Shown one piece after another: positions 6,411 through 9,712 of a DNA stretch of 64,000 bases; position 1 is the stretch's first letter, and the number at the start of each line of letters is the position of its first letter. A model generated the notes under the pieces. That model did not search any database, had not been told where the DNA came from, and worked only from the letters and a program-made list of their open reading frames with translations. The stretch is from a virus, in the IMG/VR virus record IMGVR_UViG_3300027792_000011, one strand, 5' to 3'. The position numbers and the translations under genes are program-made.

Positions 6411-7262
6411 ATGCCGAAAGTAACGAAGAAACCAGCAGAGCAGCCAGTTGACGACACCACAGTAGCAGTTCCCCTCGAGGAGATTGAGCCTGCACGCAGA
6501 GAGCTACGCAGGGGAGAGAAGATCCACATCGAAGACATCTTCGAGGTGGCACTTCCGGTGTGGATCAAGGCGTGGCCGGGCACCCCTCTGGTGATGAATA
6601 ATTTGAAAGGCAAGAGCCACATTGGAGACATCCGAATGCGGCTCTGTGGATACAACACATCCAAGAAAGGAACCGTGCGGAACCCCTATGACGAGTACAT
6701 TGGCGCAATGTACATCGACGAGGAGGGTAGACACTGCTTCCCGACCCATGGGATCAAGTTGGCTATCTGTTCCGCACTCCAGTTCATACCGGAGATCCCG
6801 ATGACGATGGCGAGAGCCCGTCGTCTAATCAAGGTCAACGTTGGTCAGGAGCTCACTCCGCTGGAGTGGGAGCCTGTTGCAAACAAGCCTCCGCTGGTCT
6901 TCTCGGTTGCTGAGATGAAGCAGGAGGGGGCTGAGCTCAAGCCTGGTAAGGGGAAGAGGGCTACCGGCGTGTACTACACGGCAGCGGTGGCTGATGACAT
7001 GCCGGAGCTGCGAGAGGACGTCGTCCGCCTCATGGGCAAGACGAGAGCTCCAGATCTCAGGTACAGGCCCCAGTACAGGGATTGGAGCGCGAAGATCGTT
7101 GTGTCCTTCCCACCGAAGATCATCACCACGAAATCCGTCTTCAACCTGATCAACATCGCGGGGAAGTACATTGGTCTCTGCGAATGGAGGCCGGAGAAGG
7201 GCGGAGAGTGGGGGATGTTTAGAATTGACCAAGAGCGGACTGGGGCTGTGACCCTAGAGTAG
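6411..7262 (+). CDS. Cas7/RAMP-like RNA-binding protein (candidate Vipr-like effector)
   Basis: RAMP-like layout: N-terminal strand with GTPLVM, Y..EEG..CFP..GIK.AI helix, thumb ending RYRPQYRDW, C-terminal glycine-rich loop AGKYIGLCEWRPEKGGEWGMF. Directly followed by a repeat array. Confidence 0.75.
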   Translation: MPKVTKKPAEQPVDDTTVAVPLEEIEPARRELRRGEKIHIEDIFEVALPVWIKAWPGTPLVMNNLKGKSHIGDIRMRLCGYNTSKKGTVRNPYDEYIGAMYIDEEGRHCFPTHGIKLAICSALQFIPEIPMTMARARRLIKVNVGQELTPLEWEPVANKPPLVFSVAEMKQEGAELKPGKGKRATGVYYTAAVADDMPELREDVVRLMGKTRAPDLRYRPQYRDWSAKIVVSFPPKIITTKSVFNLINIAGKYIGLCEWRPEKGGEWGMFRIDQERTGAVTLE

Positions 7263-7667
7263 CCTCTTCGGAGGCGAAGTGAAGCGGCTGTAGCGAATGG
7301 GATTGGAAAGCCAGGTCCAGGCTGTAGTGGCAGGGATCGACATGGAGTACCGTGGCTGTACTGGAAAGCCAAGGCCATGACTGGAACGGATGGGATTGGT
7401 CGGGCTGAACAGGATAGAACGGCAAGCCATTGGAAGCAATTGGAGGGGCTGTACAGGCCAACAGAGGTTGGGAGGTGTATGGAGCTGAGCGGAGCGATCT
7501 GATCGGCTGTAGCGGAAAGAGATGGAGAGGTGAGCAAGGGCGGTCCCGGATTACTAGGGCAGACAGGGCAGTGATCTGGCTGCAATGGAAAGCCATCGAA
7601 AGAGGTGGTATGTCTGGGATGGCTCGTGATCCTGGGGATGAAGTAATCTCTCCCCAGGATCGTTTTT
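7252..7667 (+). ncRNA. Pentamer-periodic candidate guide-RNA array 1 (leader hairpin, ~8 units, terminator)
   Basis: GGCTG(T/A/C)A anchors at 7286, 7320, 7354, 7403, 7447, 7505, 7539 (degenerate) and 7578. Spacings 34, 34, 49, 44, 58, 34, 39 are mostly 9+5n. The interior consists of 5-mers mostly starting with G/GG. Confidence 0.8.
7628..7667 (+). terminator. Intrinsic terminator closing array 1
   Basis: GATCCTGGGGA / TCCCCAGGATC stem followed by GTTTTT. Confidence 0.8.
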
Positions 7668-7685
7668 GACAAGAAAGGAGCTGCG

Positions 7686-8174
7686 ATGGCCAGAAATAGG
7701 AGGAAGTTCGCTTGGCGAACTCCTCACTTCTATCAAGGGATCGATCCTGACGAGGTAGCCAGGGAGCTCGAGGACATCAAAGAAGAGAACGGCTTGCTCA
7801 CACCATCGCTCGTGGTTGAGCGAGCACGCGATTCTATGTCGGCGCTCCACGCCTGCTTCGAGTGGAATGATACGACGGCTGCGGAGAAGTACCGGCTCCA
7901 GCAGGCAAGGACGTTGATCCTGAACGTCCAAGTGATCGTCAAACACTCTGAGCCACAGATCTTCCTAGTTCAGATCGAGAACAAGGAAGGGAAGAAGACC
8001 TATGAGGATGTTGAGCTGGTGACTGAAGAGGCGGCCTGCCTCGTCATGGCCAATGCCCTCAAAGATCTGAAGGCGTGGATGAAGAGATACAACGAGCTGA
8101 AAGATAGGTTACCTCTGAGCAAAGTCTTCAGCGCTGTCGATGAGGCGTTGAGGCAGACTGGGGCACAGCCCTAG
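7686..8174 (+). CDS. Conserved phage protein; accessory to the Cas7-like/array locus
   Basis: AAAGGAG RBS; LTP..VVE.AR...S.LH..FEW.D..AAEKYRL.QAR.LI motif; lies between the two arrays. Confidence 0.8.
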   Translation: MARNRRKFAWRTPHFYQGIDPDEVARELEDIKEENGLLTPSLVVERARDSMSALHACFEWNDTTAAEKYRLQQARTLILNVQVIVKHSEPQIFLVQIENKEGKKTYEDVELVTEEAACLVMANALKDLKAWMKRYNELKDRLPLSKVFSAVDEALRQTGAQP

Positions 8175-8881
8175 AGTAAGCAGCTTGGCTGCTGAAGTGA
8201 ACCGGCAGCAGATGAAAGGTTAGGAGGGGCTTGGGAGGCAAGATTGGGCTGTAAAGGATGGCATAGATCGGGTTAGGACCGGATCGGTTGGGATTGAACG
8301 GCTGTAGTGGTTTCTAAGGGTTAGGAAGTGAAGGGTCGGGAGGGTTCAGGCTGTAAAGGAGGGGAAAGGTAATGTAGGGGTCGGGCAAGGAAATTACAGA
8401 AAAGGCTGTAGAGGATAGGATGGGAGATGGATTGGACGGTTAGGGCCGTAAGGGCGTAGATCGGAGAGAAGCGGGAAGGTAGGGCTGTAATGAAATGAAG
8501 AATCGATAACGGGGAAGGAACTGACGGGATTAGGCTGAAGAGGAGTTGACTGCAGGGAATGGGCGCTGCTTGGCGAGTCGTATCTTGGCTGAACAGGCGA
8601 GAAATGCTCTGAGAAGGCGATGCCTTGGTACGGCTGTATTGGAGTGCAAGGCAGGCGGACTGATCAGGAAGGGCTGTACCGGATTGCCATGAAGTGTATT
8701 GCTGATCATGCGAATGGCTGTAGCGGAGCGGATTGGCGCTGATAGCAATGTAGGGGCTGGGCTGTAGTGGAACGGATTGGAGTTGACAGTGATGCAGTGG
8801 CGGACCTGGTCTGCATGCCATGGGCACCCACGTGTTTTGATCCTGGGAGGGAGACCGTTCTCTTCCAGGATCATTTTCTTT
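8169..8881 (+). ncRNA. Pentamer-periodic candidate guide-RNA array 2 (leader hairpin, ~13-15 units, terminator)
   Basis: Anchors at 8204, 8247, 8300, 8349, 8404, 8444, 8483, 8533, 8587, 8632, 8672, 8716 and 8760, plus degenerate ones at 8228 and 8799. Same leader and terminator architecture as array 1. Confidence 0.8.
8838..8881 (+). terminator. Intrinsic terminator closing array 2
   Basis: TGATCCTGG / CCAGGATCA stem extended by G-U pairs, followed by TTTTCTTT. Confidence 0.8.
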
Positions 8882-9010: not shown

Positions 9011-9712
9011 CTACAGTCCGTAGGTAGTACGGATGAGACGGACATCGCTATCTGTGAGGCGGGTGGTGGCGGTGTTCAGCTCGTCTGTCACCATGCGCGG
9101 ATACATGAGTGAGCTGATGAACTGATCATGAGAGAGTCCGATCACATGACCCAGTTCGTGGAGTGTGGTGACGAAAGCAAGTCTATCAGAGGAGGTTTCT
9201 CTGATACGAACTATGGACTGTATAGACTGCATCGTCGTTCCGATCTTAGCATGGTTGACGTAGCCACCAATCTTTCCGCTCTCGGAACCCGTAGCTCCGA
9301 CTACTGACGGCGCACCCCAGATCACTACTACATCTGGTTCCTCATCCGCAATATTGGCGACGCTGAAAAGGAGCTTTCCAACTTGGAGATTGAAGTCGTC
9401 CATAGCCTCTTTGACTATCTTCGATCCCCTATCTTGCTCTTTGAGTGCCGTATGGTTGTTGCTGAATACGACGACGGATAGCGGTAGTTGCTTTTGTGGC
9501 CACACCAGAGGAACTGGGTTCTTGCACTGCCCGCTATCCCCCTCCCCTTGTATGTCTTCGGTGTAGGAAGCGTGCCCATTGTCCCAGCACACTTGGAGCA
9601 GGCCTGCTTCCTGATGTGTAACCACCCCATAGACAACGCAGCAGGCAGCGATGACGGCGAATACCAGGATCACTAGTCCCCACGTTCTGAGAGAGCTCTG
9701 TTTCGTTTCCAT
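9011..9712 (-). CDS. Matrixin (M10-like) zinc metallopeptidase with N-terminal membrane anchor
   Basis: HELGHVIGLSH (HEXXHXXGXXH), Met-turn SLMYP, hydrophobic N-terminus. Confidence 0.88.
   Translation of the reverse strand: METKQSSLRTWGLVILVFAVIAACCVVYGVVTHQEAGLLQVCWDNGHASYTEDIQGEGDSGQCKNPVPLVWPQKQLPLSVVVFSNNHTALKEQDRGSKIVKEAMDDFNLQVGKLLFSVANIADEEPDVVVIWGAPSVVGATGSESGKIGGYVNHAKIGTTMQSIQSIVRIRETSSDRLAFVTTLHELGHVIGLSHDQFISSLMYPRMVTDELNTATTRLTDSDVRLIRTTYGL

What the first reader, a model, noticed from the sequence alone, without database searches (positions are those of the whole stretch)
7286..7626. Array 1 grammar: GGCTGTA-NN followed by an integer number of 5-mers
Seen: GGCTGTA gc|gaatg|ggatt|ggaaa|gccag|gtcca; GGCTGTA gt|ggcag|ggatc|gacat|ggagt|accgt; GGCTGTA ct|ggaaa|gccaa|ggcca|tgact|ggaac|ggatg|ggatt|ggtcg. 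Unit lengths 34, 34, 49, 44, (58), 34, 39 follow 9+5n with one exception. Positions 1-3 of each pentamer are biased to G-G-(A>C,T), while positions 4-5 look free. Inference: the variable dinucleotides carry a gapped target code, and GGCTGTA is a processing site or filament boundary.
Basis: partly seen in the sequence, partly recalled or inferred. Interest (0 to 1): 0.9.

Follow-up and report, generated by a model that had tools for sequence, protein, structure and literature searches.

The report
Phage VIPR guide-RNA array
The five-base-periodic, GGCTGTA-punctuated repeats are guide-RNA genes of a phage VIPR system, a CRISPR-related RNA-guided DNA silencer first described in 2026 preprints, so this is a real but already explained feature and a new example of a known kind.

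Summary
Array 1 (7286-7626) and a second array (8204-8800) have the strongest lag-5 G periodicity in the 3.8 Mb assembly. The pentamer profile is G / G / A>C>T / N / N, with near-maximal entropy at positions 4-5. GGCTGTA occurs 19 times against 5.3 expected.

The upstream 283-aa gene encodes a Vipr protein. Its family profile matches the solved SUSP1 Vipr (E 1.5e-11; hhalign 97%), its model resembles Cas7/Csm3, and the RNA-contact Arg/Trp/Arg residues are conserved. Of 80 other Vipr loci, 78 carry such arrays.

This is a VIPR system (bioRxiv 10.64898/2026.04.26.720920 and .720927). There, Vipr protomers hold each GGY and the NN pairs read DNA while skipping every third base.

GGCTGTA spacing of 5m-1 fits the published "staggered" arrays, where adjacent guide RNAs overlap by one base.

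Departures from the characterised type II system: A-rich scaffold position 3, no pseudoknot tail, and an accessory gene unrelated to Vap1.

Wetland metatranscriptome contigs cover both arrays. No target was found above shuffled controls.

This scan has already found VIPR loci in at least eight other genomes. Verdict: new member of a known kind.

The parts
6411..7262 (+). vipr gene: 283-aa minimal RAMP (Cas7-like) protein, the guide-RNA-binding filament subunit
   Evidence: The profile of 40 homologues matches PDB 36pp_D 'SUSP1 Vipr protein' at E 1.5e-11. It finds the SUSP1 vipr ORF at E 5.8e-14, and hhalign gives 97.3% probability over 170 columns. The AF2 model has pLDDT 80.4; top Foldseek hits are Csm3/Cas7 chains (E 3.5e-5, prob 1.0). 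The G-loop reads E258-W259-R260 and the thumb has R219. These equal SUSP1 D177, W178, R179 and R138.
7255..7285 (+). leader 1: TAGAGT box overlapping the vipr stop codon, hairpin CCTCTTCGGAGG (7263-7274), then CGAAGTGAAGC
   Evidence: Homologous to leader 2. The hairpin keeps pairing through changes in L010, and the GAAGTGAA box is also present in L013, whose Vipr is 53% identical by BLASTP. The hairpin fold itself is not better than shuffles (z -0.86). Its role as promoter or 5' end is inferred.
7286..7626 (+). vrRNA array 1: seven units starting at 7286, 7320, 7354, 7403, 7447, 7505 and 7578. Each unit reads (G)TA-NN, then G-G-H-N-N pentamers, then GGCTG
   Evidence: Metatranscriptome contigs cover 7280-7618 (X7) and 7314-7657 (X8).
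7629..7668 (+). intrinsic terminator of array 1 (GATCCTGGGGA...TCCCCAGGATC followed by TTTTT)
   Evidence: Folds at -23.2 kcal/mol, z -2.63. Conserved in L010 apart from loop changes.
7686..8174 (+). vap-like accessory gene (162 aa, phrog_15946), the conserved partner of vipr
   Evidence: Lies next to vipr homologues in L009-L013 and in mycobacteriophage, Gordonia phage and cyanophage records. The AF2 model has pLDDT 92.7, with only weak winged-helix-type fold hits. It is not detectably related to SUSP1 Vap1 (hhalign prob 0.13).
8178..8203 (+). leader 2: hairpin GCAGC-TTG-GCTGC (8180-8192), then TGAAGTGAACC
   Evidence: The loop-side bases differ from L010 (TTGG against CAAG) while the stem is kept.
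8204..8800 (+). vrRNA array 2: about 13 units. The first junction is GGCAGCA at 8204, followed by GGCTGTA/GGCTGAA/GGCCGTA junctions from 8247 to 8760
   Evidence: Metatranscriptome contigs cover 8027-8519 and 8606-8868 (X7) and 8199-8623 (X8).
8838..8880 (+). intrinsic terminator of array 2
   Evidence: Found by the terminator scan with a 16-bp stem and a T run. The fold has z -2.51. In the X7 RNA run, a contig ends at 8868 and depth is 0 in the next bin. This is only a weak hint.

Best explanation
The locus 6411-8880 is a phage-borne VIPR (Viral Interference Programmable Repeat) system. It is ordered vipr, vrRNA array 1, vap-like gene, vrRNA array 2.

**Shown here**
- The 283-aa protein is a Vipr homologue with a Cas7-like model.
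- The arrays are same-strand, terminator-ended tracts of G-G-H-N-N pentamers. Positions 1-3 are conserved and positions 4-5 are free.
- The protein-array association holds across the Vipr family.

**Inferred from the characterised SUSP1 system**
- The arrays are transcribed and cut into vrRNAs.
- One Vipr protomer binds each pentamer and sequesters the GGH scaffold.
- The exposed NN pairs read double-stranded DNA of a competing mobile element, skipping every third target base, and silence its transcription.

**The GGCTGTA junction**
I read it as the place where one vrRNA ends in the constant pentamer GGCTG and the next begins with (G)TA-NN. The shared G makes unit spacing 5m-1, which is the published tail-less 'staggered array' architecture.

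This clade differs from type II in three ways: A is preferred at scaffold position 3, there is no 3' pseudoknot tail, and the accessory protein belongs to a different family.

The confidence of 0.9 is for the VIPR identification. The boundary reading of GGCTGTA alone is about 0.65.
For: **Protein**
- Profile match to solved SUSP1 Vipr at E 1.5e-11.
- The SUSP1 vipr ORF is recovered at E 5.8e-14, with hhalign probability 97.3%.
- Top fold-search hits are Cas7/Csm3 chains.
- Equivalents of R138 and R179 are invariant in 85 of 85 family members; the W178 equivalent is W in 77 of 85.

**RNA grammar**
- Lag-5 and lag-10 periodicity, and entropy 1.1-1.7 bits at positions 1-3 against 1.9-2.0 at positions 4-5.
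- Spacing is 5m-1 in 21 of 42 intervals, p 1.4e-5.
- The legend of fig. S18 describes 1-nt overlapping vrRNAs.
- Relatives show the same design with junctions GGCAG|GT, GGCAG|TC and GGCAG|TA.

**Association**
- 78 of 80 IMG/VR Vipr loci carry a lag-5 region on the vipr strand.
- Relatives with Vipr 53% identical (BLASTP) differ: L012 keeps GGCTGTA in a roughly 2-kb array, while L013 mostly uses GGCTGAC/GGCCGAC junctions.

**Guide-like evolution**
Between phages whose Vipr is 97% identical, leaders and terminators are conserved. Whole units are replaced, inserted or deleted.

**Expression and setting**
- Both arrays lie in contigs of two wetland metatranscriptome runs.
- The contig is 174 kb at 51% GC inside a 59% GC bin, and it encodes a tail sheath.
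Against: - No target was found under the 1-nt-skip rule, or under 0-, 2- or 3-nt skips other than self matches. This covers the assembly, the related loci and IMG/VR.
- Scaffold position 3 is mostly A, whereas the SUSP1 structure sterically excludes purines there. The recognition pocket must therefore differ. In this clade H17 is replaced by Asn.
- Position 2 is G in only 56-61% of internal pentamers.
- Half of the junction spacings are not exactly 5m-1.
- The accessory protein is not homologous to Vap1.
- RNA ends are unmapped, and contigs from an RNA library do not prove transcription.
- Between the window and L010, NN positions are neither more nor less conserved than scaffold positions (11/145 against 21/219, p 0.57).
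Confidence: 0.9

Rival explanations
1. This is still a VIPR system, but GGCTGTA is not an RNA end. Each array would give one or a few long vrRNAs. The junction would be an in-filament register shift or hinge that separates several guide segments on one molecule.
For: - Units are short (7-16 pentamers, mostly 7-11), so a single unit carries only 14-22 informative bases.
- Each array has one leader and one terminator.
- RNA contigs of 339-495 nt span several junctions.
Against: - Assembled contigs cannot show RNA ends.
- The published legend for staggered arrays describes individually processed vrRNAs that abut.
- Whole units are gained and lost exactly at junctions between near-identical phages.
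- The pentamer just after each junction is the best formed (G1 0.97, G2 0.83), as expected for a defined start.
Confidence: 0.2
2. The arrays are decoy or competitor RNAs. They would be vrRNA-like transcripts that soak up or redirect the Vipr proteins of rival phages rather than arm this phage's own Vipr. This would resemble the 'solo vrRNAs' of SUSP1 satellites.
For: - Satellite and phage solo vrRNAs that redirect VIPR are documented (abstract of 10.64898/2026.10.15.759431; text).
- No target was found for any unit.
Against: - The arrays sit beside an intact vipr with conserved RNA-contact residues, and beside its conserved partner gene.
- That arrangement is the cognate operon layout, not the solo layout.
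- 78 of 80 Vipr loci carry arrays in cis.
Confidence: 0.05
3. The arrays are a protein-sponge non-coding RNA unrelated to guiding. An example would be a CsrA/RsmA-type sponge presenting many GGA motifs, or the ligand of a TRAP-like ring protein that binds triplets spaced by two bases.
For: - GGA is the commonest scaffold triplet, and the transcripts are G-rich, C-poor and terminator-ended.
- Triplet-plus-spacer recognition by oligomeric proteins is known; this point rests on my own knowledge of TRAP and CsrB.
Against: - No Rfam family matches.
- The strict 5-nt phase, the Vipr gene in cis and the family-wide Vipr-array linkage explain the pattern without a sponge.
- Most relatives use GGC or GGT rather than GGA (71 of 78 loci).
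Confidence: 0.02
4. The repeats act as DNA. They would be iterons, partition sites or packaging sites bound by a DNA-binding protein such as the 162-aa product.
For: - There is lag-10 periodicity.
- The arrays flank a small gene with weak winged-helix-like fold hits.
Against: - The tracts show strong strand asymmetry (G 0.40, C 0.13-0.18), and each has one leader and one intrinsic terminator.
- They are present in metatranscriptome assemblies.
- The neighbouring protein is homologous to an RNA-binding RAMP.
Confidence: 0.02

Closest known systems
VIPR systems with 'staggered' vrRNA arrays (bioRxiv 10.64898/2026.04.26.720920, fig. S18 legend; read)
   Same: - A Vipr gene lies beside tail-less arrays of pentamer repeats.
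- One vrRNA ends where the next begins, with a 1-nt overlap. This gives the 5m-1 spacing seen here and in relatives L023, L083 and L037.
   Different: - The figure itself is not held, so junction sequences could not be compared.
- The paper states that the ribozyme-interspersed and single-vrRNA architectures were confirmed by sRNA-seq. It does not say so for the staggered one.
- Here the junction is GGCTG|TA, the scaffold is A-rich at position 3, and the array is split in two around the accessory gene.
Type II VIPR system of Escherichia phage SUSP1 (Vipr ALH47069.1 / PDB 36pp, Vap1, four vrRNAs)
   Same: - Homologous Vipr: hhalign probability 97.3%, with conserved thumb Arg and G-loop Trp-Arg.
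- A two-gene operon flanked by same-strand pentamer-repeat RNAs.
- It is phage-encoded.
   Different: - Vipr identity is only about 21%.
- SUSP1 vrRNAs have 9-16 GGY-NN repeats and a roughly 40-nt pseudoknot tail each. Here units of 7-16 pentamers abut at a 7-nt junction with no tail.
- Scaffold position 3 is A>C>T rather than pyrimidine.
- The H17 equivalent is Asn and the D177 equivalent is Glu.
- The accessory gene is unrelated to Vap1.
- The gene order is vipr-array-vap-array rather than array-vipr-vap1-array.
Class 1 CRISPR-Cas backbone filaments (Cas7 family: Csm3, Cmr4, type VII Cas7)
   Same: - The model has a RAMP-like fold, and its top structural hits are Csm3 chains.
- One protomer binds per RNA repeat unit, with thumb-induced base flipping.
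   Different: - There is no repeat-spacer CRISPR array.
- Among the roughly 25 large ORFs scanned, none matched a Cas family. This was not a dedicated cas gene search.
- The period is 5 nt with three bases sequestered, rather than 6 nt with one base flipped.
- The guide is noncontiguous.

Membership tests
VIPR system | Vipr protein homologous to the characterised SUSP1 Vipr | tested here: met
   Profile against PDB 36pp_D gives E 1.5e-11. Profile against the SUSP1 genome gives E 5.8e-14 at the vipr ORF. hhalign gives 97.3% probability over 170 columns.
VIPR system | Minimal RAMP fold (RRM core, G-loop, thumb) | tested here: met
   The AF2 model has pLDDT 80.4 and pTM 0.74. Forty Foldseek hits have E <= 1e-3, led by Csm3/Cas7 chains.
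VIPR system | RNA-contact residues that hold G1 and G2: thumb Arg (R138), and G-loop acid, Trp and Arg (D177, W178, R179) | tested here: met
   R219, E258, W259 and R260 align to these residues. Across 85 family members the two Arg are invariant, Trp is kept in 77, and the acid is E in 81 and D in 4. The H17 equivalent is Asn here.
VIPR system | Tandem 5-nt repeats with a conserved GGY scaffold and hypervariable NN | tested here: met
   There is a lag-5 signal. Entropy is 1.06, 1.57 and 1.39 bits at positions 1-3 against 1.93 and 1.88 at positions 4-5. The variation is that position 3 is A 0.55-0.61, C 0.26 and T 0.11-0.13, which is not GGY. The paper allows 'a related consensus' such as NNNGG.
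VIPR system | Arrays lie in the intergenic regions next to vipr, on the same strand | tested here: met
   The same holds in 78 of 80 further Vipr loci and in L009-L013.
VIPR system | Adjacent vipr-accessory (vap) gene | tested here: inconclusive
   The 162-aa gene is a conserved neighbour of vipr in phage records and metagenome contigs.
VIPR system | vrRNAs are expressed, processed and bound by Vipr | not testable with these tools
   Only assembled contigs from two metatranscriptome runs of one study cover the arrays. No read ends are available and no pull-down is possible.
VIPR system | NN pairs match targets in competing mobile elements under the 1-nt-skip rule | tested here: inconclusive
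   No hit exceeded shuffled guides in 4.4 Mb of local sequence. Exact-pattern scans of IMG/VR and JGI metagenomes gave nothing or chance-level hits. Twenty-seven genomes of the bin's family gave nothing convincing.
VIPR type II (SUSP1 clade) | Each vrRNA carries a conserved 3' tail of about 40 nt with a pseudoknot; the accessory gene is vap1 | tested here: not met
   Units abut at a 7-nt junction with no intervening tail. There is no Vap1 homology.
CRISPR array | Direct repeats of about 23-47 nt alternating with unique spacers of similar length; cas genes nearby | tested here: not met
   Tandem Repeats Finder reports no such array. The only recurring element is a 7-mer. The large ORFs scanned gave no Cas family hit.
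CsrB/RsmZ-type sponge RNA | Match to the Rfam family models | tested here: not met
   No Rfam family reaches its gathering score anywhere in the window. Whether GGA motifs sit in hairpin loops was not tested.

The most novel reading that the evidence does not exclude
This clade may be a re-tooled VIPR variant. Its Vipr would accept a purine (A) at scaffold position 3, which the SUSP1 pocket sterically excludes. All six A-type loci found carry Asn for His17 and Cys for Gly176. Its vrRNAs would be released from a tail-less staggered array by cleavage at GGCUG|UA, through a processing or capping mechanism not yet characterised. That mechanism could involve the non-Vap1 accessory protein, and the target-skip rule could differ.
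Probability: 0.3. Interest if true: 0.5.

Novelty: new member of a known kind. Interest (0 to 1): 0.3.

Why it matters
The finding itself is explained. It is one more VIPR locus, carried by an uncultivated 174-kb wetland and sediment myovirus.

Its value is comparative:
- It documents a clade whose guide scaffold is G-G-A rather than G-G-Y.
- It gives a clean example of the 'staggered' array design, for which the preprint reports no experimental confirmation. The junction here is a sharply defined 7-mer.
- It shows that near-identical phages exchange whole guide units while keeping leaders and terminators. This is the turnover expected of an arms-race guide repertoire.

These features could help define how Vipr recognises the third scaffold base and how tail-less vrRNAs are cut and capped.

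Tried and rejected
**Target searches**
1. The 1-nt-skip guides from nine in-register window units were scanned against the whole 3.8 Mb assembly. The best scores stayed within the range of shuffled guides.
2. Twenty-eight guides (window, L010, L012) were scanned at skips 0-3 against 4.4 Mb of assembly plus all fetched loci. Only the trivial skip-3 self matches stood out, which shows that the scanner works.
3. Exact-pattern scans of IMG/VR with 26, 22, 20 and 18 specified bases gave no hit.
4. An 18-base internal guide from the unit at 8533 hit four viral contigs. These represent two unrelated genes, about the number I estimated by chance from an assumed database size. Flanking dinucleotides match 0 of 4. 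The skipped bases are not the codon wobble positions. I rejected these hits as chance.
5. A JGI metagenome scan with the 22-base guide gave nothing.
6. Mismatch-tolerant scans of the 27 genomes of the bin's family gave nothing, or two unrelated 3-mismatch hits.

**Other checks**
- I asked whether NN positions evolve differently from scaffold positions between the window and L010. They do not (11/145 against 21/219, p 0.57).
- I looked for solo vrRNAs elsewhere on the phage contig. Only background-level calls appeared.
- Other lag-5 peaks in the assembly that were checked are N runs or a pentapeptide-repeat gene.
- My early working ideas were a CsrA or TRAP-type sponge, G-quadruplex tracts, Chi-like sites and iterons. 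I dropped them once the Vipr homology appeared.
- blastn of the locus against deposited phages gave no match.
- The RNA-run contigs do not allow mapping of RNA ends.

Full report

Yes. The region 7263-7685 lies between two + strand genes, 6411-7262 and 7686-8174.

GGCTGTA occurs at 7286, 7320, 7354, 7447 and 7505, with variants GGCTGAA at 7403 and GGCTGCA at 7578. A second, longer array lies at 8204-8800, after the 162-aa gene. The window holds 19 copies of the 7-mer against 5.3 expected, and no shuffle reached 19.

G autocorrelation peaks at lags 5 and 10 in both arrays (+0.21 to +0.29) and is flat in the flanking genes. In a scan of the whole 3.8 Mb assembly, the arrays supply four of the five top-scoring 300-nt windows, including the top two. 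The other peaks checked are windows spanning N runs or a pentapeptide-repeat gene.

Anchored on the junctions, the internal pentamers read as follows:
- Position 1: G 0.79.
- Position 2: G 0.56-0.61.
- Position 3: A 0.55-0.61, C 0.26, T 0.11-0.13, G under 0.05.
- Positions 4 and 5: entropy 1.9-2.0 bits, against 1.1-1.7 bits for positions 1-3.

Junction spacings in array 1 are 34, 34, 49, 44, 58 and 73. It holds for 21 of 42 intervals in the window, L012 and L013 (p 1.4e-5), and most of the rest are one base off.

**2. What surrounds it**

Each array begins just after the stop codon of the upstream gene. The two leaders are homologous: a TAGAGT box, a short hairpin, then GAAGTGAA. Each array ends in a strong intrinsic terminator, at 7629-7668 and 8838-8880.

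The window lies on a 174-kb contig with 51% GC, inside a 59% GC metagenomic bin. The contig encodes a tail sheath, so it is a large myovirus-type phage. There is no Rfam or tRNA hit.

**3. Identification**

A profile of 40 homologues of the 283-aa protein matches one PDB entry, 36pp 'SUSP1 Vipr protein', at E 1.5e-11. The same profile finds the vipr ORF in the phiSUSP1 genome at E 5.8e-14. hhalign gives 97.3% probability over 170 columns.

The AlphaFold model (pLDDT 80.4) has Csm3/Cas7 chains as its best structural matches.

Three 2026 preprints describe VIPR systems:
- Phage-encoded Vipr, a minimal RAMP, oligomerises on vrRNAs made of alternating GGY and NN.
- It sequesters each GGY.
- The NN pairs read double-stranded DNA while skipping every third base.
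- This silences rival phages and satellites.

The residues reported to hold G1 and G2 are conserved here. R138 corresponds to R219, W178 to W259 and R179 to R260; D177 is Glu. Across 85 family members both Arg are invariant.

**4. Family-wide linkage**

All close relatives of this Vipr have a long non-coding gap after the gene, with the same lag-5 signal. In L010 and L011 (Vipr 97% identical by BLASTP) and L012 (53%) the GGCTGTA junction is kept; L012 has about 33 units over 2 kb. L013 (53%) mostly uses GGCTGAC or GGCCGAC.

Of 80 more distant Vipr loci from IMG/VR, 78 carry a lag-5 G-periodic tract on the vipr strand. Of the 78 loci with enough GG-NNN-GG pairs to score (five close relatives and the window included), 71 use C or T at position 3. 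Seven, including this clade, use mostly A.

Relatives have the same junction logic with other sequences: GGCAG|GT, GGCAG|TC and GGCAG|TA, with spacing mostly 5m-1. This fits the 'staggered vrRNA arrays' of the first preprint, whose legend says adjacent vrRNAs come from 1-nt overlapping positions.

So I read GGCTGTA as the constant last pentamer GGCTG of one vrRNA sharing its final G with (G)TA-NN, the first pentamer of the next. The pentamer just after each junction is the best formed (G1 0.97, G2 0.83), and the NN after GTA is variable.

**5. Evolution and expression**

Between the window and L010/L011, the leaders and terminators are nearly identical. Some units are 84-98% identical, others are wholly replaced, and whole units are inserted or deleted at junctions. 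This is turnover of cassettes, not microsatellite slippage. Within the conserved units, NN and scaffold positions change at similar rates.

The stretch occurs in freshwater-sediment, soil and wetland runs. Contigs from two wetland metatranscriptome runs of one study cover both arrays. Contigs cannot show RNA ends, and they do not strictly prove transcription.

**6. What differs from the characterised type II system**

- Scaffold position 3 is A-rich, whereas SUSP1 Vipr excludes purines there.
- All six A-type loci have Asn for His17 and Cys for Gly176. They may form one clade, so this is a lead and not a demonstrated covariation.
- There is no per-vrRNA pseudoknot tail.
- The 162-aa partner gene is a conserved neighbour of vipr in mycobacteriophages, Gordonia phages and a cyanophage. 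It belongs to a very large family and is not related to Vap1. Its model gives only weak winged-helix-type hits.

**7. Targets**

None was identified. Gapped guides from in-register units did not beat shuffled guides in the assembly or in the fetched loci at skips 0-2. Skip 3 only returned the arrays themselves.

Exact-pattern scans of IMG/VR and JGI metagenomes found nothing, or chance-level hits that are out of codon phase. Scans of the 27 genomes of the bin's family were also negative. Units are short and the public collections could only be searched for exact matches, so this is a weak negative.

**8. Verdict**

The feature is a new member of a known kind, not a new kind.

This scan has already identified VIPR loci in at least eight other genomes. 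I reached the identification independently, through the PDB match.

Noticed in passing
It keeps Y-x-P-x-W-D-D-W and G-I-G-L but lacks the EWRP G-loop. A profile search of the whole assembly at E <= 1e-5 finds only the one Vipr.
   Followed up: partly
window 7240-7285 and 8155-8203: The two array leaders are homologous, including the last ~20 nt of the two upstream ORFs (ACTGGGGC..CCCTAGAGTA), a hairpin and a GAAGTGAA box. The hairpins keep pairing through differences from L010, and the box recurs in L013. No sigma-70-like promoter was found by the scan.
   Followed up: partly
L037, L061 and the window clade (Vipr alignment columns for SUSP1 H17 and G176): All six loci whose arrays prefer A at scaffold position 3 have Asn instead of His17 and Cys instead of Gly176. 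Most GGY loci have His and Gly. The six may be monophyletic, so independence is not shown.
   Followed up: partly
L012:1161-3290: A relative with Vipr 53% identical (BLASTP) carries about 33 units over 2 kb. Several are paralogous units sharing the block GCCAA/GCCTA GCAGA ... GGCAT, which suggests duplication and divergence of guides.
   Followed up: no
window 9011-9712 (-): A matrixin-like (Peptidase_M10) gene lies just downstream of array 2, convergent with it. It keeps this position in L010, L011 and the P0002 contig.
   Followed up: no
window 6411-7262 (+), residues 1-45 and about 160-195: This Vipr is longer than most homologues (283 aa against about 200-250). It has an N-terminal extension and an internal insertion that are predicted with low confidence and are absent from SUSP1 Vipr.
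   Followed up: no
G000 contig C95:3400-4300: A pentapeptide-repeat protein gene in the host bin gives the only other genuine lag-5 signal checked in the assembly. It is unrelated to VIPR.
   Followed up: yes
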